DNA of 53,625 nucleotides, taken from the NCBI GenBank assembly GCA_008632985.1, contig QPGO01000332.1:1-53625 (forward strand), given 5' to 3'. Source of the DNA: Psammoneis japonica (taxonomy: Eukaryota). The translations under genes and the position numbers were made by a program. Shown piece after piece: positions 22,145-53,625 of this stretch. Positions within the stretch are counted from its first letter, which is position 1. The number at the start of each line of letters is the position of its first letter. The notes under the pieces were generated by a model that did no database searches, was not told the DNA's origin, and saw only the letters and a program-made list of their open reading frames with translations.

Positions 22145-22949
22145 GCTTCCTTCTTCGTTTCTAGACTGGAATTTAAGAATATTATCGGCGCTTCTGACAA
22201 CAAACTACCGGTACTATTTGTAGCATACTCTAGCTTCCTTCTTCTCGTTGATACTGTTTCGCATCATGATAAGTTTTGGGCTCCCTGTGCATTGATGCGA
22301 CAACGTTGTTTCCGAGGTAAAGGTAGTTGCATGAGATGCATTGCAATTGAAGGGGAAAGTGAGGTGTCCAAGTCTCTGAGCTGCCTTCTCTCCTCCCCAG
22401 GTTACCGTAACTTTCTTTCTCACCACGCACGGGGTGAGTTCTTCCCATGGTGGTGGGGGGCAAATTTATTTCCACTTCCCACCTTGGTTTTTTAGCCCTA
22501 CCGTATTTCAAATTACAAATCATTGCTACTCGTGACTCGGATTTTTCCCGACTCGGGATTCCATGAGAGAGTAACAATTGCCCCAAAATATATGGTAGGG
22601 CAATAGTTGGGCAATTGATCAAGTTTCGGGCGGACGGATGGTCATCAGGCCGGCAGCATGGTCGACTTCGCAGAAGCAATAAGATGATCATCATTCATCG
22701 CCCGCTGTATTCGTTCTTTGTTGCTCTCTAGCGGTTCGAGTTTAGGTGGGCAAAACACTTGACAGTTGCAGAAAAACGTCTTTTGTTGAGGAAGTGCTGT
22801 TGTCAGAAAAGAGAGTGGTCTGTGAAGGCAATATTTGTGTTTGTTTTCGCTATATACCGTACGAACAACAGGTATTTTTCGTAAGATTCACTACATTGTC
22901 TACGTGACTTGCGACTGCAGCACTTGTGTCGAGACTGCAATTCAATACT

Positions 22950-25645
22950 ATGGATATCCGCCTGGAATCCGTTGTCCAGCGGCTTCCGGCTCTTGTCTAT
23001 GTCTATTTCGTCAATCACACGACCGGGTAAGGGCCTCATCTGTATGGTCATCGAAATAAATTTCTCAGCTGTTCACTTTTGTTCTCACGTGCAATGTTCC
23101 ATTTTCCTACTACCCGGCGCTGCATACAACCGCAGAGAGTGCGGCTTTCATTTTGTGTCTGATTATTGTAAAACAATGTTTGGATACACACCGCAGCAAG
23201 TGTATGAAGATGGGAACCTGCTGGTGAATGCCATTGTCGAAGAAGAAGCCGAGGGGTATGCTGCTGCTGTGATTGAGAGCATGACAAACTTGACTCCCTT
23301 TGATCGAATGGGACATATGCGTCGGTCCGATGGACAAATCATGGATGTTCACTATCAGTCCATGCCACGTTTGATTGAAGAGAAAAATCCAAAGGACGGA
23401 TCGGTGACACAAATCACCGTGTGGGATGGAGTGGCATGCGATGTCACGGCCAAGAATGCAAACGACCTTCACAATCGCGTGACTGTGGAACAAACGGTCC
23501 GTGATTCGATGCAACCCATTTTTGAAATTGATACCCGTGGGAACATTAGCAAATGGAACAGTGCCATGTCCTCCGTCACGGGATATACTCGTGAGGAAGC
23601 TATCGGTCAACCCGTCGTGTCGTTCATGCCGGACGAAGAGCGAGGAAAGTTTTGTAGCTTTGTCTCCAAGGCGGTTAGTGAATTAGAGGATGAACAGCAG
23701 CTTCAGACATTTGACTGTGTGTTTGAATCGAAAAAGGAACGCAAACATGTGTTTCTGCATGCCAAGTGTACGTGCAGTAGAGATGCTAACCTGAGTCGGA
23801 TGGGACTTTTGTGCTGCTGCCAAGACATTACCAAAGTGAAAGAGGCTGAGAAGCAAAAGGATGATGCTCTCAAATTGGTGGATGCAGAGAGAGGTCTTAC
23901 AGAATGGCTTAGTCACGAGGTTCGGAATCCCCTCTCGGTGGCGATGGAGGCTGCTATCGCACTCCAAGACGGAGAAGACGACCAGGAAAACTACACGGAG
24001 CTTATCTGCGAATCGATTCGCTACATTGTTGATCTACTAACCAATATGCTGGATCTCAACAAGTGTATGGATGGAAAGATTGCCCTGTACCCTTCAAAAA
24101 GCCGAGTTCGCGAGGATGTATTGATTCCTACTTGCAAAATTATGTCGGTGCGAAACGACAAAGTGAAACTCCTCTTGGAAGATGGCGAGGAAGTGGAGGG
24201 CATGGTTGACAAGCTGAGATTGAGACAAGTGATTACGAACTTGGTTGCCAATGCCCTCAAATTTACCAAGGAGGGGTTTGTCAAAGTCAATCTTGAAAAG
24301 ATTGTTGGCGAGAAGCAATCTACAATGCGAATATCAGTGGCCGACTCCGGCTGCGGGATAGACCCCGCTGACTACAAGCTATTGTTCTCAAAGTGGGAGT
24401 CAATTGGATCGCAAATAAATGGTGCTGGCATTGGACTCTGTTTGAGCTTGTCCCTTGTGAGGGCCATGGGCGGTACCCTTTCCCTCGACAAAGACTACGC
24501 GTCGGGATTTAAAAGCAATAAAGGTGCACGATTCATAGTCGAGCTCCCTCTCTCGTCAATGCTTTCCGTGGATGGCTCCAATCTGAAACTTCCAGCTTCA
24601 GAAACGCTTTCAGCCGCAGTACTGGCTCGAAACCAATCCAAAAGGCCGCTGAGTGGCGACGACGTTGTCAACAAACAGGCAAAGAAGAACAAGACTTGCA
24701 ATTCGAAAGCAGAAACTACCCATCTGCGTGGAAAGTATCAATTGTTGATCGTGGACGATGACAAAATGGGCCGTAAGTTGCTCACCAGGCGCTTTCAGCG
24801 ACTTTTTCCGGATGCCACAGTTACGGAGGTTGCTAGTGGCGAGGAAGCTCTGAGAGAAGCCGAGAAAACAACGTTTGACATTATTACGGTCGATCATTTC
24901 ATGTCAGCCGACGGTATGAATGGCACAGAAACCATCAAGGCGCTTCGAAACCGTTTCAAAGATGCTTGTATTGTGGGTATCTCGGGCAACTCAAAGCGAG
25001 AGGAACACTTGGGGGCAGGTGCACAGGATTTCTTTCAAAAGCCAATTCCCAAAGACGACATCTTATTGGACCGGCTCATTACCAAGATCTCCCCACCCAG
25101 TGGATGGAAAGTGTTGTGTGTTGACGATGTTGCTGTTAATGTTCGAATGTTGTCCAGGAGACTTTGCAAAGTTGCATCTCCACACTTTACATCGCTGGAA
25201 GAAGCATCGAAGGTACGTTGTTGCTGTCTTTTTGACGTTAACATATATTCAGGCTTCTGCTGCTGACTCTACCTTTGTGTGACGCGAATAGCGATGGGAC
25301 GTAACGACGAGGTCAACAGGAGAGGAAGCCATAGAAGTATTAAAGAAACAATGGTTTGATCTGGTAATTGTCGATCAACATTTGGGAGAAGGTCCAAGTG
25401 GTGCGAATGTCGCAAATTTTGTTCGAGAACAAGCTGTAAACAGAGACGCTGTGATTGTGCTAAACAGTGGATCGGTTCTTCGAAACCAGTTTGTCGACAA
25501 GCCCTACAATGTGTTTTGGCCCAAACCTCTTCCAAGCACTGAGCAGATGCGTCTCGACTTGTGTCGCGAACTTGTGGCATCGACCAATCGGAACCATGCG
25601 GGTGAGTTAGACGGCAAGGACGACGAGAAGAAGTCATGTTTGTAG
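22950..25645 (+). CDS. Hybrid sensor histidine kinase PAS-PAS-HisKA-HATPase-REC-REC (exons 22950-23026, 23136-25212, 25292-25645)
   Basis: PAS motifs (FGYTPQQV; WNSAMSSVTGYTREEAIG), H-box WLSHEVRNPL, N-box RLRQVITNLVANALKFT, G1 VADSGCGI, G2 GAGIGL. Receivers: LIVDDD...DIITVDHFM...KP and LCVDD...DLVIVDQHL...KP. Both introns join in frame. Confidence 0.92.
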
Positions 25646-25703: not shown

Positions 25704-26741
25704 CTAGCCAAACTTGATATCGCAACTCATGGGGTAATGGTCACTGAGACTATTCCCACCAGCATCTGTCGGCGTCAGATACTCACAGATGGAACCTTTT
25801 CCCGGTGGGACAGCGGTGTTACTCGTATCGTGCAGGATATGATCCAAGGCACGTTGAGTATCGGTGATTTCCCCCGGAATGCCGGCGAGAATCAGATTGT
25901 TGTTGAGTGGGTCAAACGAATATTTCGTACTGCTGGACTTTAGCTCAAGATCATCAGCCTTATCAACATTGTCGCATAGAGCTCGGGTGTGTTCACCTTG
26001 TCTTCGTTGAAATCTCCAACCATGAGCACGAGTTCATTGTCTATATCCTGATCATCAATGAAGGTACGCATTGCCTCATACTGACGCCGACGAACATTGT
26101 GATTTTGAACCAAGAACCATGTGTGGATATTAAACACATTGATCATGACCCCATCCTTGTCAATTCGGGCGTACGACACACCCTCATCCAAACGACACTC
26201 GTTAGGAAGACCACATGCATCCCGAAAGGCTCTAAATTCATGCTTCACAATGGGACATTTGGAGTAAAGTGCCAAACCAGACCCTGATGATCCACGATCG
26301 TCGTAAATGTAGTGACAGTAACCCGCCGCAATCATGGCATCAAGGACTGTACCTTGTTCGGTCCACATTTCCTGAAGAGCCACAACATCGTAGGCATCAC
26401 CGGGAGATTGGGCAAACCATTCACCGATCCGAGCAGCTCGATCTCCCAGTGCCCAAATGCCATCTATTGCTGTCCGAATTAGGTTGAGGTTGTAGCTCAT
26501 TACGAGCACAGATGCAGCATCTGGAGTGCCAGCCGCGCACTTGTCGGATGTTGTGCCATGTTGGAAGGTATGATCCTCTTCGTCGCCATCCACACACACG
26601 CGGCACCATGCATCTTTGTCACATGCATCATTGGCAAAGAGTTTCCGAACACAGCAACTGCTTTCGCATTGGCTGCTCTTGGAGCATTCGCTGCCGTTGG
26701 GAAGCAGCGTTTTGAGCAGTGGTGGCAGTGGGAATCATCAT
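25704..26741 (-). pseudogene. Secreted EEP-family (neutral sphingomyelinase-like) phosphodiesterase, disrupted by Copia insertion and a 1-bp frameshift
   Basis: Motifs MSYN, DVVALQE, SGLALYSK, FNIHT, VGDFN; after a frameshift at ~25965, LDHILH and LSDHYP, with stop at 25704. A Cys-rich N-terminal segment precedes the catalytic domain. Confidence 0.85.
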
Positions 26742-27088
26742 TGTGGGAAAGCAGCCAGAATTCTAAGATTCGTCTGCACTTTCAGTGATTAAAAGCTGCA
26801 ATTGCGATGCAACAATCAATCAGCAACTTTGTTGCACCAAAAGTTGAGAGGTGACAATCAGTGCGTTAGAAAGATTATGAGCAGTTTTTATGAGCAGATG
26901 CAGCTGCCATCTAAAGGAAACGCGAAGTTAAACAAGCGCGAAGCTAGGAACAAACATCGCATCCGTGACTCGGCTTCCGCGGGATTCGAGACTGAGCATC
27001 GCACACGGGGTTCGAATCTTGGATCTCTGACTTGAATCGTGGAGGTCCGATGTTGTTGTAAAAACATGCAAACATGAACATTGTCACA
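26742..27088 (-). repeat. 3' LTR of Copia element
   Basis: Direct repeat of 33505-33851, differing at 7 sites. Confidence 0.97.
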
Positions 27089-27131
27089 CTCCCTTCAACA
27101 ATGTCGGGTGGAATGATGACTCGAAAACGTC

Positions 27132-30100
27132 TTGCCACTTAAGGAGCGATTTCCTGTGTTTGACAAAGAGATTCTGTGGTGGAGGTTTGGCGAAAATGTC
27201 TGCAATCTGATCCGCCGCATCAATTGGCAGGATTGACACGAGACCTTTGCGAACATGGTCTTTAAAGTGGTGAAGAGTGAGGTTGAAGTGTTTTGTCCGA
27301 GGACGCATCTTGGGCAATCTCGCGATCTCCAATGCTCCAGAATTGTCTTCAAAAGCCTTGCAATGTACGACTGGTGTCTTGGAAGGGACATCATGACCGT
27401 GATCCATAAATTCTTGAATGAGGTTCACAATTGGGATGGCGCTTCGAAGACTTTCCGAAAGAGCGACAAACTCAGCTTCAGCAGTGCTGAGCGCGATCTG
27501 AGTCTGCAGCTTGGACGTCCAGACAATCGGACATCCTGCATGGGTGATGACAAACCCAGTTCGAGATTTGGAAGTGCCGACGTCATCGGGTGCAGTCAGC
27601 TTATTCCAATTGCCCACAAAGTCCGCGTCGGCATGAACTTCAAGGGACTTGTCCATTGAGGGCTGCAGTGTGATGCCTTCAGTTCTGGTTGACCTCAGGC
27701 ACTCACAGAGCCATGGCACGGCTTCACCGTGAGAAACCTTGGGATCAGAAGAAAAGCGTGCAACTTGGTGCACCGCGTAAGCGACATCTGGTCGAGTGCT
27801 CTTCTCCAGAAAATTGAGCTTGCCGATGATGGATCGGCAATGAAAGCTCCCTTGGAAAGCAGGCTCACTCATGTGCCTGTGGAGGATCTTGGAGGAAGGA
27901 GCAGGAGCAGACTTGTCTGGCAGTCTCTTTGGAATGTTGGCCATCTCCAGCATCTGATTGACAAGGTGAGGTTGGGCAAGTTTCATTCTGCCATCTGGTG
28001 GTGTCTCGACGTTGACACCGAGACAGTCGTCCAGAGTGCCTTGACCATCAATGTCAAAATTCTCATCTCTGACATCCTGCATCGCCTTGTCAACAGCAGA
28101 CTTGTCAGGGGATGCAAAGATGCCGTCATCGACACAATGAATGAAAATGACATTGCCGCGAAAATGCAGGCACTCATCAACCGCCGATTGTACGAAACCA
28201 ATCCTTGACAATCCATCACGCAAGTGTTCTTGCCATGCTCTCCCTGCTTGCTTTTGTCCATGTAAGTTCTTGAGCAACTTCAGAACATGAGTCTCACCAT
28301 TGCCATGTTTTGTTTCAATTCCTGCAGGTAACTCCATGTGCACATCACATTCGATGTCGGCATGCGGGTGCGCCAGAACGAAGTCGACTTTGCGTGCACG
28401 CCACTTCTTAAGAATGGCAATGATCAGCAGGAGCCGGACAGTGAACCAGAAGACCACGGCAGAGCAGGTCTGGAAGTAGTTGACAGCATACTCTTGCTTT
28501 CCGCCGTGCACATTAAGTCGGGACTTCCATTTGAAGACGGCTTGGGTCTTAAGGCATTCGCACAACCAGCGCACAGTAGCGCAATGTCGGACAGACGACT
28601 GTCGTGCTTTTTTTGCGATTTGCGCGACAAATTGCCGTCGACGCCGACGATGACGATGACATTTTTCTGATTGTCTTACAGAACGACTTTAAAATATGCA
28701 CTTAATAGCGTTATCAATAATGCTCTTAAGAACATCAATACGTAAAGAAAGCTACCCGGACGAGCTCATAATCGTTCGATAATTGAATGCATCAAATGAC
28801 AGTCAAAAAACAGAGCTCAGTATTGGTATGACGTTTTGCGATTGAACGAAGGCTGCTCCTGGTCTATTTCATGACTTGATATGTTCGTAAATTTAATAAT
28901 CTAAATGTCTATAACGCTCAAAAACTCCAGGACACGTCGATGTCGTCGCTATCATTACGACAACGCACCGCCGTCATGTCGCCGATTTTTAGCGATGCTC
29001 GTGTAGCGCGCACGAAGTTTCCAGTACAAAAAAAATTCAGAATGTCAAATCGTCTTGCCATCCATCAGCTCGTTGTGCGAATACGTTAATGTCTCTTTTG
29101 CGCTTCATAGACCACACCGAAGGGAGAACATCAACATCGTCAGGTACGTCCTCTCTTGGAATGAGTGTCCAATGTTTCCTTTCAATGTGATCATTGACCT
29201 CCTTAACACAGGCCTTGATAAATTCGTCTCTGTCAGGTTCACGCATGGCCTGATCAAAGTGCATGGTGCCGGGGTCCGAGCTCGCCAGAAAAGAGATGGG
29301 TGAGTCCACATCGTCCTGCAGTTTGTAATCATCCTCGTGCATCGCATCATAACATGCCTCTGCCTCTGCATTGTAGGAGACAATGCCTTGAGCCCATTGC
29401 AGTTGGCTCTCGCGCATCCTTTCGGTCGGGCGTCGTTGTCGGCCGGACCCACTGGCACTGGGTTGACCCACAGTGCGCTGTGGCTCAGATGGTGCATCAG
29501 AATCATCTGGAGGCGTGCATGGCATTTCATCATCCGGTTGGGCATTGTCAAATGAGTCATCAGTGGTGGACGTGTCAGCAGGATGCAGCAGCTGAGACGG
29601 GACATCCGAGCTCGGCTCAGGTGGTTCCGTTGTGGCAGGGACTGATCCCTCAACCGGTGCGTCACTTGATTTCCCAAAGATGTTGAAAGTGCTCCTTGTC
29701 TTGAGTTGTCTGAAACCTGCAATGCCTTGCCATTGTGAGAATGTAGGAGGATTCCCAGCAAAAGGGCGAACGGTCTCAAAGAAGTCGTCAAATTGTGCGT
29801 GAAATTGCGGCGACACGAGTCCGGTCTGCAAGTTCAAAACCAAGGCAACTGAACCTGCATGTCTTGTTGATGGTCCCAAATTGATTCCCAACTTTGCCCT
29901 TGGGTCCCACTTGGGCAGCCTGCCTCCTCCCTGCAACCGGTTGTGCAAGGCGTAGACGGGACAGCCGAAGGTGTGGTGTTGTTTGAGATTGGGCTGGACC
30001 TTGACGGACGAGAAACGTTCCAGCGGAGAAGAGCCATCCTCGTGATTCGGCAAGTGATTCTTGATCTCGTTTGAGTTCCTGAGAGCGCTTGGCCACAAGT

Positions 30101-31888
30101 TCAACTCAACAGCCGTTGGCCATCTCACTTTTGCATGCAGGAGTTGCTTCCGAGATTGCTCTTGGAGGTCCCTCACTCTTTTCTCCGCGATGCCGTTTTG
30201 GAAGTGGGCGTTGACCCCACAACAGGATGTTGTTTGCTGTTGCTTCTTGACATCTTGTATGAAAGCATTGTCAGCAAATCTTCCATTGTCGGCGTGGTGG
30301 TGTTGAACACGGACGTGCATCCGGCGTGCGAATGCCTCGAAAGCGTGCTTGGCTTCGAGCGTCTCGGCTGAGGCAAGTCCTTTCTGCAAACACATGCATC
30401 CCAATCCGCTGAAATGATCAACAAAATTGTCGCTGCTCGATGCCTTTGTTTCGTAGGTCTCCCTTTGAGCTGTGGGATCAATCCAGGAGTGGGACTCTCG
30501 AGCTGGTCGACGGATGCGGCTTCTCCAGGCGAAGTTGCCAAGTGGATTCGTCGGTTCCGCTTGGACTTGGAGCGCCATGGTCGTTTCGTCATGGCACCGT
30601 GTGGGCAGCCGGCACATTTTGGGTTGTGTGCCTTTGTGAGGTGTTTCGGTAGAATGCCTGGGGCGGCCAATGGCTTTGTCATTTTGAATGACATGTGGCC
30701 CAGGCGGCAATGCCAACGCAACAGTTCACCCTGGTCATCTGTGGCAGCAAGGGCGTCATCATTTGGTGTGATGTTGATGGGTTCCGGCAAGTCCTGCTGT
30801 GCCTCCGGTGTCGTGAAATCTCTTAGGTTTTCCTCGTCTGAGTCTGAACGACTTGCTCCGTCTGTTGGCTCAAATGAGACAGGAGCATCCTCATCAGCAG
30901 TGTTGCGTGCGTCTTGCGTCTCGGAAGGACGTGTCTCGGATGGACTTCTGAAGACGTCTGTGTCAATTGCAGCCTCGTCATCATTCGCAATGCTCTCGTC
31001 ATCTGGTGGTATGATGTGAGCTTGACAGGCCACGTGCTCGATAGTTTCGACATCGGTTTGTCCTTCGACAGCGGCTGCAAAGGTCCGGCATTTGTTGGAA
31101 CCGGGTGCGGAGCGCATCTTGGCGACATTAGAGTTGGCGGACCATGGAATCAGGCGATGGCACTTGTGCTGGTCCCACATCAGCAACAGTCCGTCGTCCC
31201 CAGTCCAAGATGCGGTTCCGTGAGGCTCTGGCGTGTGGTCATTAGCTTGTTGGCTCCATTGCTGCGGGCAGAGAAGACAATGAGGTAAGTCCGGTGCGAG
31301 CAGCGCGTCTCGAATTTTGATGCTGTGCACTCGTCCCATGTCGTCCTCAATTGCCCACTGCACTGTTCCTTCTCCCTTAGCACGCAAGTGGCCCTTGACA
31401 CCGAGTGCCACTTTGTTGGATTTGCGAAGAGGACCAATGAAGTGTGCCTCGTTGTTGGACATGGTGCAGGAAGAATGTGAGTCGACACCGATTGCGAATG
31501 AGTCCGAATCGTAAGTGGGCTCCGTTCGCTCGGGACAGTGTGGTGTGGTTGAGTTGTACGCTCCAACCGTCTTGTGTCGCGCAATGACACAGTGAGCCTT
31601 CTTGGTGGCCACTCTGGAGCGGTGACCTGGCCTCGTCGACGTATGATGCCGTGCACAGTGCCTCGTTGGCCGTCGCTGGTAAGTCTTAACTCGTCTTGTG
31701 CCCAGTTCAGCCAGGACATGTGAGATGACCCACTCACCCAGCGTCATTACGGCATGTGACAGGCGCTTACACTTTTCTGAAGGAAGGGATAGCATCATGA
31801 ACAGCAGCATGATCCAGATCGACACTGCACATTTCATGACGCCAGCGACCGCTGTCAGGAGCACTGACACAGTGACGGCCATCTGCAA
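27132..31888 (-). pseudogene. Copia pol (protease, integrase, reverse transcriptase, RNase H), mutated, frameshifted near 30425 and interrupted by a MITE
   Basis: Motifs IGVDSHSS, WHCRLGH, HADNGRF, QNGIAEK, WSMKRKRD, LKNLHGQKQAGR, CVDDG, TRPD, ADADF, EDNSGA, ADIFAKP. Confidence 0.93.
28553..29085. mobile_element. 533-bp non-autonomous DNA transposon (MITE) with TTAA target duplication, nested in Copia RT
   Basis: TTAA at 28549-28552 and 29086-29089. ~15-bp imperfect TIRs GGCATTCGCACAACC / CGTTGTGCGAATACG. Excision restores KRDIKTQAVFKWK. Confidence 0.9.
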
Positions 31889-31924
31889 GGACAGCAGCAG
31901 TGTCAGAGTGAACCTGCAGAGCAG

Positions 31925-33430
31925 TCACTCTTGATCCACTTCGTTTAGGATGGTAGAGATGGCACTTGCGAAGGAGACTTTCTTGTCCGACGTGTCTGTG
32001 GATGGAGCAGACTGTTGCTTGCAGAGTCTACAGCCTTGGTTGCCCGGATCATCAGGTGAGTGTATGACCCAAGCAGTGTGATGTGGGCACCAGTGATAGT
32101 CGCGATTGTTGACGCGCTTGTGACAGCACTGATGACCGTTCACTGTCTTCTTAGGAGCGTCCTCCTTGGGCGGGACTTTCTTCCAGGCTTCGTCCGCTTT
32201 CTGTCTCTGACGTGGAGTGGTCTTGGTCTTCCTTGACCGTGTGCTTCTTTCCTTGGTTGAACCAGCCTTGGCCTTCAAAGCTTTAGATGGCTGAAGGTTC
32301 TGATCCTTGATGGAGTCTACCTTGGCTGCAAGCGCGACGATTTGCTCTTCAGCCGGTGACAGTGCTCCCCACTTCTTCTCGCGCTTGAGGTCAGCACATT
32401 TGTTCAGTGCCAACGTCATGATTTGCGTCGGCATGAATTCCTCACCGTCGTCGCACCTGTCCTTGTGCAACATGATGTGCTTGACGAACACTTCGTCAGC
32501 AGCTGCGGCGCATCCTTTGAATGGGTTCATGACAAGGTCGTCGCACTGCTCTCCTCTAGCTTGGAGTCCGTCAACGTTGAGCTTGGCGCACTTGTTGAAC
32601 TCTTCGATGTCCGAGTCAACAGCCGCCATGTGCGTGTCCAGGCTTGACAAGTTCTCGCGGAAGTAGTTGGTGGTGGAGCGTGTGTCAACGATGGCCTTTT
32701 GCACAAGCAGCTTGAAGAATGGTGTGCCGATTTGATTTCCATTGATCGTGTGGGAATCTATCTCAGCCAATGTCTTGTCTCTTGCTTCCTCCGTAAGGGA
32801 TTGAGAGATCGCCTCGGCCATCTGCACATTGTTCTGTGCTTGTCGCGTAGGTGGATTCGCGAAGGTGTTCGCGTGGGTTCTAACATCCTGTAGAGTGAGC
32901 AGTCCGTACTCGGAGATGAGATCTCGTGGAGTTCCATTCGCGTCGGGAATGGCGAGCATGTCTCCTGCCCCTGTTTTCCATCCTGCCTCGGCAGCTCGTT
33001 GACTGAGTGTCTCACAAAACCGTTTGAGACCTTCTGAATCGCCGTTGAACTCGTGCGGCAGCGGCACAGTGGCTGCGTTCCAAAGCTTGAGGCCTTGCGA
33101 TGTGCCGCAGTCGATGAAGTTGTTGGGACGGTGTTGACCTGGAGTCAACGCGAAGATCGGCAGTGGTGGCACAGGTGCCAGTGGTGGTCCACCTGGCGGG
33201 ACTCCACCTGGTGGGACTCCACCTCCGCCTCCTCCTCCACCTCCTCCGCCACCTCCTCCTGGAGGCACACCGGGAGGAATGACTGGGGGAGGTGCAGGAG
33301 CAACTGGAGCGGCTGCAGGAGCAGGTGCTGTTGCCGGAGCAGCAGCAGTGGCAGGAGCTGCAGCGGGTGCAGCAGTGGGAGCTGCAACAGAGGCAGCCAG
33401 AGCAGCCGCGGTTCGTGTCTGCGTGACCAT
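31925..33430 (-). CDS. Copia gag protein (501 aa)
   Basis: Pro/Ala/Gly-rich N-terminus, FALTPG motif and C-terminal WCPHH..W..H....C knuckle variant, lying just downstream of the 5' LTR. Confidence 0.85.
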   Translation of the reverse strand: MVTQTRTAAALAASVAAPTAAPAAAPATAAAPATAPAPAAAPVAPAPPPVIPPGVPPGGGGGGGGGGGGGGVPPGGVPPGGPPLAPVPPLPIFALTPGQHRPNNFIDCGTSQGLKLWNAATVPLPHEFNGDSEGLKRFCETLSQRAAEAGWKTGAGDMLAIPDANGTPRDLISEYGLLTLQDVRTHANTFANPPTRQAQNNVQMAEAISQSLTEEARDKTLAEIDSHTINGNQIGTPFFKLLVQKAIVDTRSTTNYFRENLSSLDTHMAAVDSDIEEFNKCAKLNVDGLQARGEQCDDLVMNPFKGCAAAADEVFVKHIMLHKDRCDDGEEFMPTQIMTLALNKCADLKREKKWGALSPAEEQIVALAAKVDSIKDQNLQPSKALKAKAGSTKERSTRSRKTKTTPRQRQKADEAWKKVPPKEDAPKKTVNGHQCCHKRVNNRDYHWCPHHTAWVIHSPDDPGNQGCRLCKQQSAPSTDTSDKKVSFASAISTILNEVDQE

Positions 33431-33504
33431 GGCAACAGCAGAGTAAAGTGGAATCGAGAGCTTAAGATCGATTGACTTAACTTGTAGATTTCGCAGAGGA
33501 AGCG

Positions 33505-33851
33505 TGTGGGAAAGTAGCCAGAATTCTAAGATTTGTCTGCACTTTCAGTGATTAAAAGCTGCAATTGCGATGCAACAATCAATCAGTGACTTTGTTGCAC
33601 CAAAAGTTGAGAGGTGACAATCAGTGCGTCAGAAAGATTATGAGCAGTTTTTATGAGCAGATGCAGCTGCCATCTAAAGGAAACGCGAAGTTAAACAAGC
33701 GCGAAGCCAGGAACAAACATCGCATCCGTGACTCGGCTTCCGCGGGATTCGAGACTGAGCATCGCACACGGGGTTCGAATCTTGGATCTCTGACTCGAAT
33801 CGTGGAGGTCCGATGTTGTTGTAAAAACATGCAAATGTGAACATTGTCACA
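33505..33851 (-). repeat. 5' LTR of Copia element
   Basis: Direct repeat of 26742-27088. Confidence 0.97.
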
Positions 33852-33913
33852 ATCATCATGCCAACAAAGACCACAACGGCCGACAACAACATGGGGCACA
33901 CTCCTTGCTGCAT
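33852..33913 (-). pseudogene. Displaced 5' end (signal peptide) of the EEP gene
   Basis: MQQGVCPMLLSAVVVFVGMM joins in frame to IPTATTAQTLLPNG once the Copia and one TSD copy are removed. Confidence 0.8.
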
Positions 33914-35176
33914 TGAGAACTTTGTGTTGTCATTGTGAATGATGATTCGGCATGGGTTCAGGGTCATGGTCCAAGCACTGCAGCAAAAGGCCTTGCATTG
34001 GTTGGATCGAAACGCCACCTTGGTTTGTGTTCTTGTGTGCTGCGTTTCACGTTTCACTCTGAGCTGTTTCTCTTTGCGGTCGACGCAAGGGCGGCGCCGC
34101 ACAAAGCAGCGCACCGCACGCAACTGACATGCATCCATCGAGGGACTGGCAGTTGTCTTGGTGCTCTGGTTTGCTCCAGGTTTGCAAATTGGAAAAGGGG
34201 CATCTTATGCAGTCACCCCACCAGCATGCATCTTGTCTCAGTGAGAAGCAGATGGGTGGCACCACAGTTTTAAAACTGATTGCACACAACAGCCAGCCCT
34301 CCTGCCTGCTGCTGATGCAAAACAAATCTCCGTGCAGAGGTTAGACTCCTCAACAAAACTCAAGGGGACCCACAACTTTCTCATTGGTGGAAGGCAAGAG
34401 TGCCTACAGACCTGCACATTGGTTTGCTTGTGCGGTCACTTGTTGCTTTAACAATTGGCAAAATTGAGTGTGTGTGAAATCCTCTGTGATGACGCACACA
34501 CACGTGTGTGTGTGCCTCTGGGTTGTTGTTCAAAGTTGTCTGGATGGCTGCAAGAGGGACGAATGGTTGCAGGCAGGAGACAAAAAACATGGTTTCTTGG
34601 AGGCCACGTGTGGAGTGGCCTTGATCTCACAAACCAAAACAGAGCAAGCATGATGAAGGAATTGATCTTTCACAAGTTTTGTTGCACCAAGGTTGATGGC
34701 CAACTCATCACACAACATGTCAAAAGCACACACAGCCCGTTGGGACAACAGCATTGTTGGGTTTGTTTGCAAGAGGCGGTTCATTGACAGGGGGGGTGTT
34801 CAGGTGCTGCCAAGGTGTGGATGTTGTGACCAGCTTTGATGCTCAAGTGTGACCCTCATGGTGTGCTGTCTTGCCAAAACGAGTGGCAAAAAGGCCCGGC
34901 AGGCTGGTCATTGTGCCGGACCCAGATGTGGTCAAAGAGGTGCTTTTGGCCACTTGGCACAATGTCTTCAACTGTGGATGGCAAAAACACAAAAGTCACT
35001 GTTTGGTCACAATTGCAACCCTTGTTTTGCATCTTTGACTTGCTGATGGGTGTCTTTGCTTTCACACACATGTGCAGGCCATGTGAGGTCAGTGCAGGCT
35101 GACAAGACATTCATGATGATGTCTTGGTCATTTGGTGGGCAGTGCTGTCCACTTGTCTGGGTCTCATGCTCACTGC

Positions 35177-38100
35177 TGACAGAAATTGAAGGCAAATGGC
35201 AAGAATTCAAACAACAACTCCTCACTGCTGTCTAAATGGCAGATGAGTCTCTGCTCAGAGACCGTCACAGGAGCCAAAAGACGTGTGAGTCGGTACAATC
35301 AGGCTGCTGTCATCATTCTTGTGAGCCTTGTGGCTCGAAAGCAAACCACATCGCGCGCGAACGCGCGGAACTGAAGCACACAAAACTGTGCGCGGTGAAC
35401 TGAACAGCACGCAACATTTTGCGCGCACCCAAATCCTGTTCAAATCCTGTCACTCCCCAGTTTGCTTGAGGGGTCACAGAAACAGATTCGACTTCGGATT
35501 GACTGAAGAACTTTGGAGTCAAAGCACCAAAACATGAGGAGACAAGAAAGGATCAAGATCCTGGAGCAACGTTGCATTCTCCAAGTGGGTCATCTTGAGA
35601 TGAGCTGCGTCTCCCCAATTGCAGATGCCATTGTGCTTTTCAAAGCTCAAGGCACACTTGGGATCTTGTGGGATTCCACATCCGCACTTGCAATGGAAGG
35701 AGCAAAGCTTGGTCTGGTTGACAATGTTGAAGGGCGGGACAACATCACAGGACAATGCAAACAAGTTGAAATCGCCCTCACTTCCTGAGCAAAGGTCGTA
35801 AAGACTGACAGCCGTCTGTTGGTTCTTGGAACGGTTGCCACACTGGGCTGCTGCTAGAAAAACAGAGCAATGCTCGAGCAGGGTGGCATGGCGGTTGCAC
35901 AACTCGGGGAACAGAGCAAGCATGAGTTCAAAGGCACAAGCAGCGGTCTTGTGTTCCACCAATCTGACTGCAAACTCAGCTGCATCTCCTGAGAGACTGA
36001 TCCAATTGGACAAACGAGTCTCAAGGTGCAAGCCTTCGGGGATCGGATTGGAGCAAGATGTCTTGTGGTGCAAGACTGCAGATGTCTGGTTGGGGCAACC
36101 AGCCCCGTGCTGCAAGACTTCTGGAATCCAAAAGGACTTGCCAGTCTTGTGACACGAGTCTTCGGGGATCTAATCAGGAGGCCAAGTCTTGAGGTGCGAG
36201 ACTTGGGGGATCCAATCAGGAGGCCGAGTCTCATGGCGCAAGACTTGAGGGATCCAACCAGGAGGCCTGGTCTCGAGGTGCGAGACTCGGGGGATCCAAC
36301 CAGGAGGCCCAGTCTCGAGGCACGAGACTTGAGGCATCCAATCAGGAGGCCTGGTCTCGGGGTGCGAGACTTGGGGCATCCAATCAGGAGGCCCAGTCTC
36401 GAGGCACGAGACTTGAGGCATCCAATCAGGAGGCCTGGTCTCGGGGTGCGAGACTTGGGGCATCCAATCAGGAGGCCCAGTCTTGAGGTGCAAGACTTGG
36501 GGCATCCAATCAGGAGGCCCAGTCTCGAGGTACGAGACTTGAGGCATCCGATCAGGAGGCCCAGTCTCGAGGTGCGGTGCAGGGAGGATCCGAGGCCTGG
36601 TCTCAAGGTGCAAGACTTGGAGGATCCAAAGACAACGAAGCTGCTTGGATGTCCTGAACTCCTCATCTGATGAACTGGTTGAACTGTTGTGAACAGATTC
36701 AATGATGGGAAAAGGAGGCTCCCCATCAGGAGATGCAAGAAGCAAGTTGTCATCTCCATCACTTCCCAAACGAAGGCTGTGAAGGGTGACAGCGGTCAAC
36801 ACGTGGAGGTTGGCAGCACGTGGTTTGCGGGGTGCAAAGGCTGCAGCTTTGGAAGCCATGGGTGGAGTGTCCCAACTGGTCTCGAAGTGCAGGCCTGCGC
36901 AAGGGTTGCAATCCTGCACTGGGCCGAGGTTGCTTGCAGGCGGGTTGGTCAAGACATGCGGGGCGCGACTGACACCAGTTCTGGGGGACACCTGAGTGGC
37001 GGCACAGTGCAAGGCTGGTGTCAAAATGGCACCGAGTTCACCTGGTTTGGATGGCAAGGGACTCGGCACAGGTGCGGAGGGTGCTGCGCCAGTGGCTGGA
37101 GAGGTCAAGTGGTCCGGACCAAGGCGGCAGTTGCGAAATTCCTCGGGTGTGAGCAACTGGGGTTCATTGGTCACATCATCACCGTTGCAAACTTTGACAA
37201 AGTAGAAGCTGATCAAAGCGGCTAGGAGGTTTCTGTGGGTGCGTGGCAAAGGCACTGCATTGGCGCCGTCTCTGCAAGCAGGTCGGTGGGAGGGTGCATT
37301 CCAATTTATGGGACAGGGCAGAACAAAGAGGGCTGTCATCGTCTTGATTGAGCACAGTGCCTAGAATGCATTCAAAGCTTTTGGCTTGTTGCTGTTGCGT
37401 GAGAACCATGACGGAGGATGGTGCAGCAGAAACAAAAGACAGGAACCAATCTAGAGCGCGATCTTGGCTCGGAGTTTTGACTTGGAACTTGGCTTGAAAA
37501 AGACTTGACTTGAGCTAGACTTGACTTGAAATCTTGGACTGTCTTAAAATCAGAAGTCGCCGGGTTGTGCTGTCCGTTTTGCAGTTGAGTGCCAAACTTC
37601 CCATCCGGTCCGTAGAGTTGTGCTGGCACGTCCGAACCCACGGCTGGCGGCGCTTTGGGTTGCTCACAAGCGGAGTGGCGGGTTGCAAACCCCTGCAGGT
37701 GAGCTGACCAGGGGTGGACAAGACCCCCAAACCGTTCTCATTTTACATCGGTTGGATTTCCCGATCAGGCTGGCCAGTTGATGCAGGCGTTGGGCGCTGT
37801 GGACGAAGGAACCAACGCAGAAAAAAAACACCCTCGCCCCAACGCAGGCTGCAATCACGGCTGCTTGCTCTCACAGTCATCCTCATGGACCCAGTGGAAC
37901 TGCAGAGCACCAGCAGTCTGGGCAGATCAGGCACAATGGACTCGGTGTGCTTGTGGAGTGGTGGCAAAGCCGCAGTCCAAAGAGTGGGTTCAAGTTCTTG
38001 GCCGTGAAGATGTGTGTGTGTGCATGTGTCTTCAGCAACGCAGATCCTTGAATGTGCAGGGTTCTTGACCGTTGACCGTTGAATGGGTGCATGAAGGGAT

Positions 38101-38648
38101 GAGGATCAAGGATGGACTTGGATGCAACCGATGAATGTGTGTCTTCAGCGACAAAAGGCAGTGTGGTCAATCCAGATGTCCAGCGGCAAGGAGACTTGAT
38201 GGCGACGTTAACTTCCTGCCGATGCCTGGCATTGAATGCGCGCAGACTTGCCGATGTACGTAGAACACACACGGAGGTCCACGCAGAATTGAAAAGCGTC
38301 ATCGGCAAATCAACGACGATGATGGCGGTTGCTCAATGGGTTGACAATGAGCAGACTGTCAATCTGACAGAAATTGAAGGCAAATGGCAAGAATTCAAAC
38401 AACAACTCCTCACTGCTGTCTAAATGGCAGATGAGTCTCCGCTCAGAGACCGTTGCAGGAGCCGAAAGACGTGCAAGTCGGTGCAATCGGGCTAGGGCCC
38501 TACTGTCATTATTCTTGTGAGCCTTGTGGCTCGAAAGCAAACTGCATCGCACGCGAACGCGCGGAACTAAAGCACACAAAACTGTGCGCGGTAAACTGAA
38601 CAGCGCGCGACATTTTGCGTGCACCTGAATCCTGTTCAAATCCTGTCA
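35177..38648 (-). mobile_element. Non-autonomous gag-only LTR retrotransposon (3.47 kb)
   Basis: LTRs at 35177-35452 and 38365-38648 with TGACAG...CTGTCA ends, TSD ACTGC (35172-35176 and 38649-38653), and PPT GGGGAG at 35453-35458. Gag-like start MVLTQQQQAKSFECILGTVLNQDDDSPL at 37409. No pol motifs seen. Confidence 0.9.
36165..36627. repeat. 42-bp tandem repeat (~10-11 units) inside gag-like ORF
   Basis: Unit ~GGGGCATCCAATCAGGAGGCCCAGTCTCGAGGTGCGAGACTT, encoding the 14-aa repeat LETGPPDWMPQVS(Y/H/C) on the minus strand. Confidence 0.95.
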
Positions 38649-40329
38649 ACTGCACTGGATGCTGCATGCTGCCCAGCCCAAGTGGCAGCAGCAACCAAAA
38701 ATCAAAGCACAGTGGAAGATTGAGGTGAGGCTCTTCCAGCCAATGAACTACAAGACAAGATGCCCCCCTGGTGCCTGCCAATGGAAGTGATGTCAAGAAG
38801 TCAAAGGGTGTGGGGCACACCCCTGTGGTGCACAGCCAGAAGCTGCAGCAGCAGCAACAATGCCCAAGCTTTTTGCTGGTGATGCTGCACTCAACAACAG
38901 CACATTGTTGGCAAGGCCATTCTTGCAAGTGCAAAAGTTGTTGTGGAAGCAAGGAAAAGAAAACAGATCAAGGCAGCACTTGTCTGTGTGTGTGTGTGTG
39001 CAACTTGGCACTTTTTTGTGAAACACCAACAGTGTGGAGATGATGATTTGGCATGGGCTCAGGGTCATGGTCCAAGCTCTGCAGCAAAAGACCTCGTCAG
39101 TTGGATTGAAATGCCATTTTGGTTGCATTGGTTTCACTTTTCACCACTGTGTGAGAGCTGCATTGGCTGTGGGGTGGTTCTCCACTGTTCTGTTTTTGTT
39201 GCTGTCAATGCAAGGGCAGCAGCATCACACAAAGCAGCCATCGTTCTCCACTCTAGAGCAGAGAGCATTGGAACAAAATGGGGACTTTGAGTTGTCTTGG
39301 TGCTGGTCAACCACTGGCTCGCATCTTGTCTCAGCAAGAAGATGGGTGTGACAGCACTGCAGATCCAAAACTGATTGCATGACAGCCCTGATGAAAATCT
39401 GGAGGTTTGCCTTCACCAGATTCAGGTGAACCCACAACTTTGTCATGTTGGTGAAAGGCAAGAGTGCTTGGGGTCCTGTGAATTGGGCTGCTTGCATGGT
39501 CATTTCTTGCTTCAACAGTTGGCAGAATTGAGTGTGTGTGCTCCTCTGATGTGTGGATTGTTTTTCAAAGCTGGACAAAAATTGTTGGACAAACCATGGT
39601 CACCTGCAGACACCAAACATGGTTTCTTGGAGGCCAGCACTTGCAGAGAGCAGTCTTGATCTTGCAGACAAAAGCAGAGAAAGCATCAAGCTGGTGCATC
39701 AAGGTTGGCTAATTTGTCGCACAACATGTCATGAGCACTGCCAGCTGGGGTGACAACATTGCTGGGTTTGTCTGCAAGAGGTGGATCATTCTTGGCTGGG
39801 GGGTTTCACGTGCCACCAAGGCATGGGTGTCAGCCATGACCAACTTTGATGCTCAAATGTGGCCCTCCTGGTGTGTGGTCTTGCCAAAAAGAACAATGAA
39901 AAGTTGAGGCTGGTCATTGTGCTGGATGCAGTCAAAGAGGTGCTTTTGGCCACTTGGCAATGTCCTCAGCTGTGGGTGGCAAAAAGACAAAAGGCAGGCT
40001 GATGAACCATTTGTGTTGATTTCTTGGTCATTTGGTGGGCAGCATTTTTGTCCACTTGTCTGGCCTCAGGATCCCTGGACACATCATGCTGTCCAGCACA
40101 AGCAGCAGCAGCAGCCAAAAAATCAAATCGCATGCTGAAAAGATTGAGGCAAGGTTCCGCCGCAGCCAATGAACACCAAGACAAGATGCCCCCCTCGTGC
40201 CCACAAATGGAAGTGAAGACAAAGAATGCAGCACTCTTGCACACACTTGCACACACTGCCCTCCTCAGCCAAGTGCATTGTCAGCCACTTCATTGCTCTA
40301 GAAGGAAAATGCACATCCCACCTCCCCAC

Positions 40330-43300
40330 CAATGATGGTGCTGCCATCAAGATCCAGCAACCACATGTTGGCCAAAACTCTGTCACTTTTTGACATCCTG
40401 CTGCTCCACATCATTTCATCCATTTCCTCTCTAGACCCAAGTGAATGTTGAAAGTTTAAGGATCTGACATGCCCACATCAACAAATGGCACAAAAAGACT
40501 TGTGCTTTGCAGAACATTGGTCCAAATGGGCCACTGCGACCACTGCAAGCTCTTGCAGTCACTCACAGGCCTTTGGACATGGCGGGGCGATTTTAGGGAA
40601 AAAGATGGCAACCCTGCAGCAGGGCCCCACATTGTGTGACACTGCACATGAGCAATGCAGTGCTTGGGCCATGGGTGCACATGCTCTTGACTGCTGCACA
40701 GAGAGTCTGTGTGGCACGATCACAGGACCCCCCCCAATGCCCCACTGCATCCAAAGCCCTGGTCACTGACATCAACACTGACAAAATGGCAGGCAAAATG
40801 AAAATGCAAGTGGAACAAAAGCACACACAATTGGGAATCACCAGGACACCTGTCACAGCACACTTGCCTGGCCACCTTGCAGAGGCAGCTCTGAGTCACC
40901 CTGCTGAGTTTCATGGTCTCAAAAGTGTTGCCAGCAGTTTGTGGCATCTGCACATCCAAGAGGAGGTGAGGAGTCCGGCAAAACAACCCCCCTTCTCTCT
41001 GTCTCACCCAGCACAAAGCCCAGACTCACAGCTGCACTGCCAAGATGTGACATCTTCCAAAATGAGGTGTGTGACATCATGTCTCAGATGGCAAAGACAG
41101 TGTGGTTGCATTGCGGGAAGAAAAGGTTGGTGAAGACCAGATGCCACCAGTGTGCATGAACAAGGCAACACACAATGAACACTTGCAAGGCATGCAAGCT
41201 TCATCAAAATGGCCCCAAAACTCAATCAGTCACAGCGTGCTTTATTTTGCTCATGCACAGTGCTGTCAGAAATTGGGGTGGCAAAAAAAATGACGTGCCA
41301 TCATTGTGCACTGACCAAGACCCCCCAAAAAGACACTGAGTGCATCACAAATCCATCTTGTTCAAATTGGGTGCACCAGTGGATGCAAAGTGGAGAGAAG
41401 CACAAGGCTCTCTCAAACGGATGTGCTGTGGTGGTGCAAGTGTGCAAATGCCATCAAAAAGACACCAATGTTGCAGACACAATGACCGGCTGCACCAGAT
41501 GATTGACTTTGCAGGGTGCAACAAAAGCCACAATGATCTTTGGCAAATGGGAAAAGGATGCCAAACAAGAAAACATGGAAAGAACTTGCCACAGCAATGT
41601 TGTTGACCATTCAGATGTCACCCGGACAGCACAGCAATTGAGTCACAAGTCAACAAGGCACAGAGCTGTTTGTGCTGTGTGTGGCAACCAAAGCCCCCCC
41701 CAGGAAACCAAACCCATGCACCAACCTCTTCACTTGTGGCAACAACAGAAAAAGAACCTGCATGAAAAATGCATTGGCTCCATGATGTTTGCCATGTCAA
41801 AATGCGTCAAAGTGCAGTGTGCCATTTTCCATGCCAAATCAGGAATGTTTGGGTCCAATTGACTTGTTCAATCACTGTGCAATCCAAGGTCTGATGATTC
41901 TCCAACACATCCAGCAACAAGACTTTGCAATGGTCCCAGCTTGTCGTGCTGGCTGAGTGCTCCTCAGCTGTTTCAAGGAAGCTGAATGCTGGCCTCGTGC
42001 TGCTTGTCACAATCCGTTTTGCCAAAACAAGACTTTTGTTTTGGCCAGCTGCCATTTGGCCCCTCTTTCAAATGTCTCCACCACCAGTGCCACCAACAAA
42101 CAGAAGCTTGCCCATTGCACAAATGTTTCTGCAACATGCGAGACAAACATTCTTTTGCCATTGGACAACACAGACACTGGCGCCCTGTCTGTCCATCTTG
42201 CATGTTTACAATCAGGGACTGCAGCACATTGCAAAGCCTCCCATGCAGATGCAGATCCGATGCTGTGTGCTCTTGCAACTCCAGAATGTCTTTCATCTGT
42301 CTCCAGCCCTCATTCTGACCAAACTTGTCCACATGGAGTGCAAGAACATGAGCTCAGAGTTTTTGGCATGCTGCAGCCCTTTGGATGATTTGGCTCAAGC
42401 TGTTTTGCCAACTCCATCATTTTGACAGCATGTGGCAGATGCATCCCAAGGTCCCTGCATTTCTGGTGACATCAAAGTCCACATGTTGCCAGCTGCCGGC
42501 ATGAGTTTTTGTTCTCAAGCACATGTTTCAAAGCTGGAGGTGCAGCTGATGAATTGAAAACACCCATTTTTCAGTCAAGTCAAGAACCACAACTTTGTCA
42601 CACAACTCACCAGGGAAGCAAATCTGAGTTGCTTTTGTCATTGGTCTTGTTTCATCCAGATTGCACTCCAAGTTGAGACCACAAATGGCCTCACTGTCAA
42701 GATTGGAAACCTTGTTGGCCATGCTGAGGGCCCAGTTCTTGACCTCAGTTTTGGTTGAGAACACAACAAACTTGTCTTTTGCCAAAGCGGCCCAAAAAGC
42801 CCATCTGAGACTTGCACTGCCATGGCTTTATGTTCTTGTGCAGTTCTTGAAACACATTGGGCCACAAACTGTGGTCTCCACCACCATTGCCTTCAGCCCT
42901 TTTCAGCTCAGCAGCCCTGCTCTTGGTTTGTGCAGTTTGGCAGAGTGCAAAATGTGGCCTGAGCTCATCATTTGATTTTGTGTGGGAAAACAATTAAAGT
43001 TGACCTTGCCCTCATTTGACAGGGAATCACACATTGAGAGGAACTTTTTTCTTGCTTGCTTTGATGCTGGCACCATTTTGGCAAACTCAAATGAATGGTT
43101 GCTGCTCTCTGAGTTGTCAGGGTTCAAATGGAAGCTTTCCTGAAAATGTGACTCACAAATGTTCACAACTTGGCAAGGGAAATTGTAAAGCCACAACAGC
43201 GTCAGTGCAGCGCAGCATGTTTTTTAAAATGTCAAGCTGCAACAAGAGATGCACCTGCAGAAACACCTTTTCAGGAGACATGGACGGTTTCAACAGCACA

Positions 43301-45950: not shown

Positions 45951-45984
45951 CTCAAGACCCATCACACTTGTGGTGGGAAGCCAG

Positions 45985-46817
45985 GTGGAGGGGTGCAATT
46001 TTGGGGTGTAAAAACACGCGTCCCTTAAAAAACATTGCAGCCAACAAATCTGGCACCAGACAGAGACATGCATTTTGTGTCATTGACCACTCAGTGGTTG
46101 GTGATTGCAGACTTTTTCATGTTGGTTTGTCAGTTTGTTGCCATTTGAAAGTGTGTCCCTTGGATTTTGGAATGGCATGGGCTCTTTAGTGTGCAAGTGA
46201 ATCACTCGAATTTGTGGAATGATCATTGAGGACATTGTGGTTCATGGGGACTTCCTAAAAAATTGACAAATTCTCTGCGATGGGTGCGTGGAACTGTTTT
46301 TCAGTGGAGCTCGAAAATGCTGTAAAAGATGCATTCCAGCTCTGGGTGGGACCGCACACTGTGATGCTGAACTCATGGATGCACCAAACTGTGACATCGA
46401 CAGTTTTTTGGATCGTGCCGCATGTCGTGCACGTGGAAAGGTGTGTGACTTTTGTGAAAATGTGTGTCATTTTGTGGCACACTCATTGAGCAATCTGTCC
46501 AACAGCTTTTGACATTTTTTGTTGCAGCACAACAGAATTGTGCAGGGCAGGCACATTGTTTGCAAAAATGTTGAGTGGTGAGAGGCACAATTGCACCTCA
46601 AACTTGGCAGTTTGTTTGATGTTGAAGACAAACATGTCCATTGATTTGCTCACACTGCGGAGCTGGCACGCAAAATTCCAGCGATTTGATGTGCGCAAGG
46701 TTGCAGCGGAGCCGCCAAATGCCATGGTGTTTTGATGCAGTCTCATGAATGTTTCTTGCCATGACTTCCAGCTTGTGTCAACAATTGATTTGCGATTTAC
46801 AGTCATCCAATTTCACA
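45985..46817. repeat. Relic related to the MITE at 48163-48871
   Basis: 46691-46820 aligns with 48557-48760. 45990-46020 (GGGGTGTAAAAAC) matches the MITE subterminal repeat. Confidence 0.55.
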
Positions 46818-53300: not shown

Positions 53301-53625
53301 GAATGGACGCGGCTGAGGTTTGGTCATGTGGACGGTGTGTGTTGTCAGGGTGGGCAGGATGCAAGACACAAAATTGGCGCAAAAATGGCGATCATTGATC
53401 ATTTTGCATCAATGAATGCTTTTGCAGTTGCCTGACAAAAGGATGCGTTGGGACAATTGAACACTTTCAGGTTGTGCAACAAATGAGAATGCAAAAACTT
53501 GCCAACGGAAAGGGAAGAGCAAGTTAGAACACAGTCTTCGGAACATTTTGTGATCACCGCTCACTGTCAATTCGTTGACTTGCGCACGCAGTGAAAAGGC
53601 TCGGGTTGTCCCATGTCCGTCAGTT

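What the first reader, a model, noticed from the sequence alone, without database searches (positions are those of the whole stretch)
25704..26741. The TpA mutator appears to leak from the Copia into the adjacent host gene
Seen: the EEP gene reads SKCPI where the family usually has S(K/R)YPI, and LDHILHD where LDYIL is typical. TpA is nearly absent from ~26500-26741 next to the LTR, yet Tyr persists further away (SYN, AYD, HYIYD, SDHYP). The kinase just beyond is unaffected. Inference: the process spreads in cis over about 1 kb, as expected if it follows silent chromatin.
Basis: partly seen in the sequence, partly recalled or inferred. Interest (0 to 1): 0.75.

Follow-up and report, generated by a model that had tools for sequence, protein, structure and literature searches.

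The report
TpA mutator spills past retrotransposon edge
In this diatom-like genome, a process that rewrites TA to TG or CA in transposons also reaches single-copy host DNA beside them, but at this gene, which the retrotransposon has split in two, the spill is clear only for about 250 bases and the two residues first quoted do not prove it.

Summary
Partly confirmed. The Copia sits inside the EEP gene, not beside it (TSD ATCAT); the gene is also frameshifted. TA loss is real next to the LTR: 1 TA in 26502-26741 against 10 and 6 in two insertion-free paralogues. Beyond that there is no net loss (32 vs 32 and 37), so 'about 1 kb' is unsupported here. SKCPI is a window-specific Tyr>Cys, but the first His of LDHIL is shared with both paralogues, and TA-type amino-acid changes (3 of 28) are no commoner than in the paralogues (4 of 66).

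The general idea holds at other copies of this Copia. One allele pair shows 24 of 41 TA lost, all in one direction, within 1.22 kb of single-copy amidohydrolase DNA. An insertion-free allele shows 4 of 7 lost within 286 bp, then 0 of 61. A third pair shows no leak. Within copies, CpG decay is 6.5-fold higher in TA-hit tracts, as expected for methylated chromatin.

The mutator matches a 2026 Bigelowiella preprint; the leak parallels RIP leakage. The scan noted both before, on other DNA of this genome.

The parts
25704..26741 (-). 3' remnant of a secreted EEP (PF03372) gene with a Cys-rich N-terminal domain; cut from its 5' end by the Copia
   Evidence: paralogues L002 (80%) and L003 (70%)
26502..26741 (.). 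TA-stripped stretch next to the LTR: 1 TA (10 and 6 in paralogues), CpG normal; includes Tyr>His (26571) and Val>Ala (26624)
26256..26257 (-). SKCPI: TAT>TGT relative to both paralogues, 486 bp from the LTR; not separable from background
25831..25832 (-). LYD>LHD, Tyr>His at a position invariant in 12 of 12 homologues, 911 bp from the LTR; the preceding His (LDH) is shared with both paralogues
25962..25963 (.). 7-nt deletion relative to both paralogues, shifting the frame; also present in an X1 contig
26737..26741 (+). left copy of the 5-bp target-site duplication ATCAT
26742..27088 (-). 3' LTR (347 bp, TG...CA); 9 differences from the other LTR, 7 TA-type and 2 CG-type, none of another kind
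27089..33504 (-). Ty1/Copia interior (Pol_BBD, gag_pre-integrs, SH3, RVT_2); with the LTRs, 210 of 291 family TA sites are converted along the whole element
28549..29085 (.). 537-bp repeated element nested in the Copia, with TTAA at both ends; keeps all 31 TA
33505..33851 (-). 5' LTR
33852..33856 (+). right copy of the TSD ATCAT
33857..34250 (-). 5' piece of the EEP gene (signal-peptide codons, ATG at 33892 or 33913) and upstream DNA; 0 of 10 paralogue TA kept, 7 changed to TG/CA; CpG rho 0.63
34251..53625 (.). older TA-poor, partly CpG-poor repeat block that began a few hundred bases upstream of the gene before the insertion
22885..25645 (+). convergent PAS-histidine kinase-receiver gene, two GT..AG introns, ordinary TA content

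Best explanation
A young Copia inserted into the signal-peptide codons of an EEP paralogue that was already diverging fast (shown). After insertion, a TpA-specific A:T>G:C mutator hit both strands independently (shown from LTR pairs and copy comparisons). It works in kb-scale tracts that coincide with CpG decay, so probably with methylated silent chromatin (co-location shown; chromatin inferred). Here the tract covers the whole element and the gene's 5' piece, wedged between the element and an older silent block, and runs about 250 bp, perhaps weakly to 500 bp, into the 3' remnant (inferred from paralogues). Tracts are set by position, not by whether the base hit is repeated, so they can enter single-copy host DNA (shown at two other insertions). 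Differences further out, including SKCPI and LHD, may be leak or ordinary pseudogene drift. The likeliest chemistry is adenine deamination to hypoxanthine, as proposed for Bigelowiella (not tested).
For: Locus: 1 TA vs 10 and 6 in the first 240 bp. Against L002, window-lost:paralogue-lost counts toward the LTR are 2:5, 3:1, 5:1, 6:0, and 7:0 on the far side (distance test p=0.0013). Polarised by both paralogues, transitions are 6 of 42 TA bases vs 24 of 447 other non-CpG bases (p=0.035). All 9 LTR-LTR differences are TA- or CG-type.
Genome: C388 vs C139 left flank (only these two matches; amidohydrolase): 24 of 41 TA lost, 24:0 in direction, within 1220 bp; 0 of 282 beyond. C388 right flank vs insertion-free C74: 4 of 7 lost within 286 bp, 0 of 61 at 499-2336 bp. 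CpG loss 38 of 964 in TA-hot vs 4 of 637 in TA-cold parts of the same 6 copies (p=2e-5), while non-CpG C>T/G>A is equal, 32 of 26811 vs 43 of 38947. No strand coordination, 985 of 1918 vs 972 expected.
Against: No insertion-free allele of this gene was found; paralogues at 70-80% are noisy. Three of the 16 apparent window losses are probably L002 gains by the family residues, and four are ambiguous. The polarised gradient is not significant (p=0.13; 0.025 only with the ambiguous sites), and window vs L002 TA rates are 6/42 vs 2/34 (p=0.21). Six of six TAC Tyr codons 249-570 bp from the LTR survive, though these contexts are 70-81% lost inside the element. The remnant shows no CpG excess (12 vs 10). 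Three far-side changes are shared with an old duplicate at 39040, so may predate the insertion. C153 vs insertion-free C191 shows no leak (2 of 18 lost within 500 bp, 1 reverse). The flank-vs-edge correlation falls to p=0.10 once this locus and one repeat flank are removed. Both positive allele tests come from one contig, C388, whose TSDs do not match.
Confidence: 0.6

Rival explanations
1. One reading: the mutator fades from the LTR over the whole 1-kb remnant and made SKCPI and LHD.
For: Nine polarised TA>TG/CA changes lie from 118 to 911 bp; 9 of 33 sites against about 11% expected (p=0.007). A reach of at least 1.22 kb exists at C388.
Against: No net TA deficit beyond 240 bp (32 vs 32 and 37). 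TA-type share of amino-acid changes 3 of 28 vs 4 of 66 (p=0.42). The window copy also gained TA at 4 distal sites. Six of six TAC Tyr codons are kept at 249-570 bp.
Confidence: 0.15
2. The gradient comes from the older silent block, which lay a few hundred bases upstream of the gene before the Copia arrived; the Copia merely cut through an existing gradient.
For: Loss is complete on the block side (0 of 10 kept) and fades along the gene in the uninterrupted order. Three changes are shared with an old duplicate of the upstream DNA. Conserved Tyr codons survive, as if selection still acted.
Against: 33852-34250 keeps CpG (rho 0.63) while the block beyond has lost it (0.20), the mark of recent TA loss. 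L003 lies about 400 bp from a similar block and its TA drop is abrupt at the block edge.
Confidence: 0.12
3. No leak at this locus: a Cys/Ala-rich, naturally TA-poor domain plus drift of a decaying paralogue.
For: L003 also has few TA there (6). The window copy has twice L002's amino-acid changes (28 of 198 vs 13 of 183, p=0.03). Only 2 to 4 proximal sites are firm losses.
Against: 1 TA in 240 bp is below all 711 host windows. The proximal asymmetry against L002 is 11:1 within 500 bp (p=0.003, a post-hoc cut). The far-side piece keeps none of 10 TA.
Confidence: 0.13

Closest known systems
TpA hypermutation of integrated NCLDV and virophage DNA in Bigelowiella natans (Mettrop et al., bioRxiv 10.64898/2026.01.13.699255; read parts 1-3 of 5; supplements not seen)
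   Same: TpA>TpG/CpA on both strands, confined to regions of foreign or selfish DNA, uneven between lines or copies.
   Different: Here the targets are multi-copy retrotransposons in a diatom-like genome, with added CpG decay. The preprint's main text has no 'flank', 'spread', 'leak', 'adjacent', 'diatom' or 'boundar', although it extends its viral region by about 21 kb on mutation rate and lists 24 likely host Pfams among TA-poor genes.
RIP leakage in ascomycetes (Leptosphaeria AvrLm6 region, PMC2973834, three passages read; it cites at least 930 bp of leakage in Neurospora)
   Same: A repeat-centred mutator reaches single-copy DNA for up to about 1 kb, in some alleles only.
   Different: Opposite chemistry: RIP is C>T (and, from recall, creates TpA from CpA); this destroys TpA. 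Repetition alone is not enough here: several near-identical copies are almost untouched (8-15 of 291 sites).
DNMT5-dependent DNA methylation of young transposons in Phaeodactylum tricornutum (PMC9998398, abstract only)
   Same: Offers the likely source of the CpG>TpG/CpA decay that co-locates with the TA tracts.
   Different: Concerns methylation and silencing; the abstract reports no TpA mutation.

Membership tests
Bigelowiella-type TpA hypermutation | A:T>G:C changes concentrated at TpA | tested here: met
   Across 19 Copia copies, 2007 TG/CA and 9 CG outcomes at 291 TA sites, with only 2-9 other outcomes per copy
Bigelowiella-type TpA hypermutation | Both strands hit | tested here: met
   891 TG and 1116 CA; no strand runs
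Bigelowiella-type TpA hypermutation | Confined to regions of foreign or selfish DNA | tested here: met
   TA rho near 0-0.2 in repeat blocks, about 0.35-0.85 in gene-rich DNA; limited spill into flanks
Bigelowiella-type TpA hypermutation | Not constitutive: active in some lines only | tested here: inconclusive
   Copies range from 8 to 254 of 291 sites and a nested insert is untouched, but age differences could also give this
Bigelowiella-type TpA hypermutation | About 1000-fold raised de novo rate in mutation-accumulation lines | not testable with these tools
   needs an experiment
Bigelowiella-type TpA hypermutation | Candidate ADAT2/3-like DNA adenine deaminase | not tested
   no search made; ADAT2 is near-universal (recalled), so presence alone would say little
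RIP with leakage | C:G>T:A transitions | tested here: not met
   dominant change is TA>TG/CA
RIP with leakage | Triggered by sequence duplication | tested here: inconclusive
   Targets are repeats, but near-identical copies and a 99%-identical nested insert escape, and tracts cover only part of many copies
RIP with leakage | Leak into adjoining single-copy DNA over about 1 kb | tested here: met
   1220 bp and 286 bp at two C388 flanks; absent at C153; about 250 bp at this locus
RIP with leakage | Premeiotic timing and a RID-type methyltransferase (recalled) | not testable with these tools
   timing needs crosses; no enzyme search made
Ty1/Copia LTR retrotransposon | Paired TG...CA LTRs, 5-bp TSD, polypurine tract, integrase region before RVT_2 | tested here: met
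EEP superfamily (PF03372) | Pfam hit above the curated cut-off; GDFN and SDH motifs (motifs recalled) | tested here: met
   49.8 bits vs 24.5; motifs present but in two frames

The most novel reading that the evidence does not exclude
The TpA mutator is aimed by LTR-driven transcription rather than by homology: tracts start downstream of an LTR promoter and can therefore rewrite a single-copy host gene remnant for over 1 kb without touching the LTR or the near half of the element. Mean conversion peaks 0.6-2.1 kb in from the element's 5' end (0.53-0.57) and is lowest near the 3' end (0.03). At C388 the remnant downstream of the 3' LTR lost 24 of 41 TA while that LTR lost none of 13 further sites. 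This would be a transcription-guided DNA adenine editor in diatoms that also diversifies host genes.
Probability: 0.2. Interest if true: 0.8.

Novelty: new variant of a known kind. Interest (0 to 1): 0.5.

Why it matters
TpA hypermutation turned up in print for one alga only in my searches, with no account of how it is aimed or where it stops. Allele pairs here show that it reaches single-copy host DNA and co-locates with CpG decay within the same transposon copy. That turns the targeting question (homology, chromatin or transcription) into a test with 5mC and RNA maps, and means genes near silenced elements can lose Tyr and Val codons quickly, as with RIP leakage in fungi. LTR-based dates in such a genome will read too old. 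This EEP locus is a weak example: the gene is dead and the signal is short.

Tried and rejected
Empty allele of the EEP locus: the genome search gave only two paralogues. Three runs of one sample were laid on 22800-26900; no listed contig showed an uninterrupted allele, but X1 may be the source of this DNA, contigs drop rare variants and some rows were not shown, so this is no evidence. No RNA holder was listed. An X2 contig spliced at two GT..AG introns covers the kinase; lack of X2 cover on the EEP gene is not used as evidence.

The apparent frameshift at 26710 was rejected as real: the X1 contig lacks that base.

Allele searches for flanks C44R, C5L, C5R and the kinase found only the query. 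C139R found only a nested repeat. C21R proved to be a repeat and was dropped from the host-like set. C153L has no counterpart in C191; that alignment is meaningless. C244L vs C118L gave 2 of 7 lost within 250 bp among 7 substitutions, too few to use.

The flank survey (16 host-like of 22 flanks; 20 of the family's flanks were fetched at 5 kb or more) gave rho -0.55, p=0.03 at 0-500 bp and nothing further out, but p=0.10 without this locus and C21R: a hint only.

Strand-coordinated (processive single-strand) mutation was tested and not seen. The sharp outer edge at 1220 bp in C388 is not taken as the mutator's limit, because other differences also fall to 4 in 7.7 kb there, so it may mark a homogenised or collapsed stretch. 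The Fisher test used 57 for the C388R count; the list holds 61. One search crashed and was replaced.

Paper searches found no report of TpA mutation in diatoms or of its leak into flanks; only open-licence PMC and bioRxiv were searched, and the preprint's supplements could not be seen.

Full report
Setting. The contig alternates gene-rich DNA (TA observed/expected about 0.35-0.85) with blocks almost free of TA and rich in TG and CA (1-1400, 7000-16000, 26500 onwards). The named homologues of the gene are diatom or MMETSP proteins, so I call the genome diatom-like.

Anatomy. Two 347-bp LTRs at 26742-27088 and 33505-33851 enclose a Copia interior on the - strand. ATCAT is duplicated on both sides. 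The EEP gene is therefore split: most of it lies at 25704-26741 and its signal-peptide codons and upstream DNA at 33857 onwards, where they align with paralogue L002. A 7-nt deletion near 25962 shifts the frame and is also in an X1 contig, while the extra base at 26710 is not. The gene is a pseudogene. Two insertion-free paralogues exist: L002 (80%, one open frame) and L003 (70%, with frame breaks of its own).

The quoted residues. Among 12 homologues that cover the site, the SKxPI position is His in 9, Phe in 2 and Tyr in 1; both paralogues have Tyr, so Cys is a window-specific TAT>TGT. In LDHILHD the first His is shared with L002, L003 and P0001, so it is not a product of the insertion. The second His replaces a Tyr found in 12 of 12 homologues. 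At positions where the other two paralogues agree, the window copy has 28 amino-acid changes, 3 of them TA-type; L002 has 1 of 13 and L003 3 of 53 (p=0.42). The window copy changed twice as fast as L002 (p=0.03), mostly by non-TA changes. Since its two LTRs differ at no non-TA, non-CG site (9 differences), most of that divergence predates the insertion. The quoted residues are thus compatible with leak but do not show it.

How far TA loss reaches here. In 26502-26741 there is 1 TA against 10 and 6; in 25704-26501 there are 32 against 32 and 37. Against L002, 16 of its 41 TA read TG or CA in the window, and 7 of the window's 34 TA read TG or CA in L002; by bins toward the LTR the ratio is 2:5, 3:1, 5:1, 6:0. 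With L003 and the family residues as outgroups I judge 9 of the 16 to be window losses, 3 L002 gains and 4 ambiguous (my reading). The 9 show no significant gradient (p=0.13), though they exceed the background transition rate (p=0.007 to 0.035). Six TAC Tyr codons at 249-570 bp all survive, in contexts that are 70-81% lost inside the element. Three of those changes are shared with an old duplicate at 39040 and may be older.

The family as a test bed. Of 20 copies fetched, 18 had both LTRs in the stretch; with the window copy that makes 19. At 291 TA sites, conversion ranges from 8 to 254. It comes in tracts of one to several kb, mostly in the 5' half, and the window copy is one of three hit end to end (210). 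Outcomes are 891 TG and 1116 CA, with no strand runs, and TAC is the preferred context (0.38 vs 0.12 for TAA). In six copies with both hot and cold parts, private CpG losses are 38 of 964 in hot and 4 of 637 in cold parts (p=2e-5), while other C>T/G>A changes are equal (C444 and C333 left out). The simplest reading is that TA tracts are the methylated tracts; DNMT5-dependent methylation of young transposons is known in Phaeodactylum (PMC9998398, abstract).

Leak at other insertions. C139 and C388 carry the same insertion in an amidohydrolase gene whose flank matches nowhere else. C388 has lost 24 of 41 TA within 1220 bp, with none in the reverse direction, and 0 of 282 further out. The adjoining LTR is identical in both, and the outer edge may be a homogenisation boundary, so 1220 bp is a minimum. 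C388's other flank, against insertion-free C74, lost 4 of 7 TA within 286 bp and 0 of 61 from 499 to 2336 bp; further out, in a divergent block, 5 against 2. C153 against insertion-free C191 shows no leak (2 of 18 within 500 bp, 1 reverse), in line with its untouched outer LTR sites, but a detached patch at 1.9-2.9 kb (10 against 1). C388 is one of four copies with mismatched TSDs, so both positive tests rest on one possibly chimeric contig; a 24:0 TA pattern is nonetheless not what sequencing error gives.

Mechanism. Shown: post-insertion TA>TG/CA on both strands, in tracts, co-located with CpG decay, able to enter single-copy DNA. Inferred: the tracts are silent-chromatin domains; here one spans the old block's edge, the gene's 5' piece and the element, and ends about 250 bp into the remnant. 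Borrowed from the preprint and untested: adenine deamination. Rivals for this locus are a full 1-kb leak (0.15), an older gradient from the neighbouring block (0.12) and drift with no leak (0.13).

Comparison. The signature matches Mettrop et al. (bioRxiv 10.64898/2026.01.13.699255; parts 1-3 of 5 read), whose main text does not discuss flanks. It works like RIP leakage (PMC2973834, passages) but fails RIP's defining base change. Six paper searches found no report in diatoms. The scan's notes had reported the mutator many times in this genome and a leak at two other loci; they gave me the preprint, and I did not check their loci.

Verdict. Observation partly right; interpretation right in kind but overstated for this gene. 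New variant of a known kind, interest 0.5.

Noticed in passing
window 28549-29085: A 537-bp repeated element with TTAA at both ends, nested in the heavily hit Copia, keeps all 31 TA; none is lost against six copies at 92-99% identity, which have lost 0-25. Either it is newer than the last mutator episode or position alone is not enough.
   Followed up: partly
L034 (C444), L043 (C118), L047 (C388), L048 (C362): 4 of 19 full-length copies have mismatched TSDs. C444 joins the left flank of C118/C244 to a right flank 99.9% identical to this window's. Ectopic recombinants or assembly chimeras.
   Followed up: partly
Copia family, L034-L053: TA conversion peaks 0.6-2.1 kb in from the element's 5' end and is lowest near the 3' end; LTRs are often less hit than the interior, and many left-LTR changes are shared with the right LTR, so probably inherited from a parent copy.
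   Followed up: partly
L065, 1.9-2.9 kb from the C153 LTR: Detached patch of TA loss (10 against 1 relative to C191) with no leak next to the LTR itself.
   Followed up: no
window 33939-35175 plus 38649-38796, and 39040-40222: Old tandem duplicate of the DNA upstream of the EEP gene (146 transversions in 1219 aligned bases, 35 TG/CA swaps); one copy is interrupted by another LTR element at 35176-38648.
   Followed up: partly
L003:2900-4039: The second paralogue also lies about 400 bp from a TA-free block, with an abrupt border, and has frame breaks near both ends.
   Followed up: partly
L055, 1.0-1.25 kb from the C388 LTR: Small deletions cluster at the outer edge of the mutated flank (11 gap columns); repair scars or poor polishing.
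   Followed up: no
run X2 laid on window 22800-25622: Listed as DNA, but its 2752-nt contig skips two GT..AG introns of the kinase, so it looks like a transcript assembly.
   Followed up: no
window 36018-36647: Eleven overlapping matches at 42-nt spacing: a degenerate 42-nt tandem array inside the nested LTR element.
   Followed up: no
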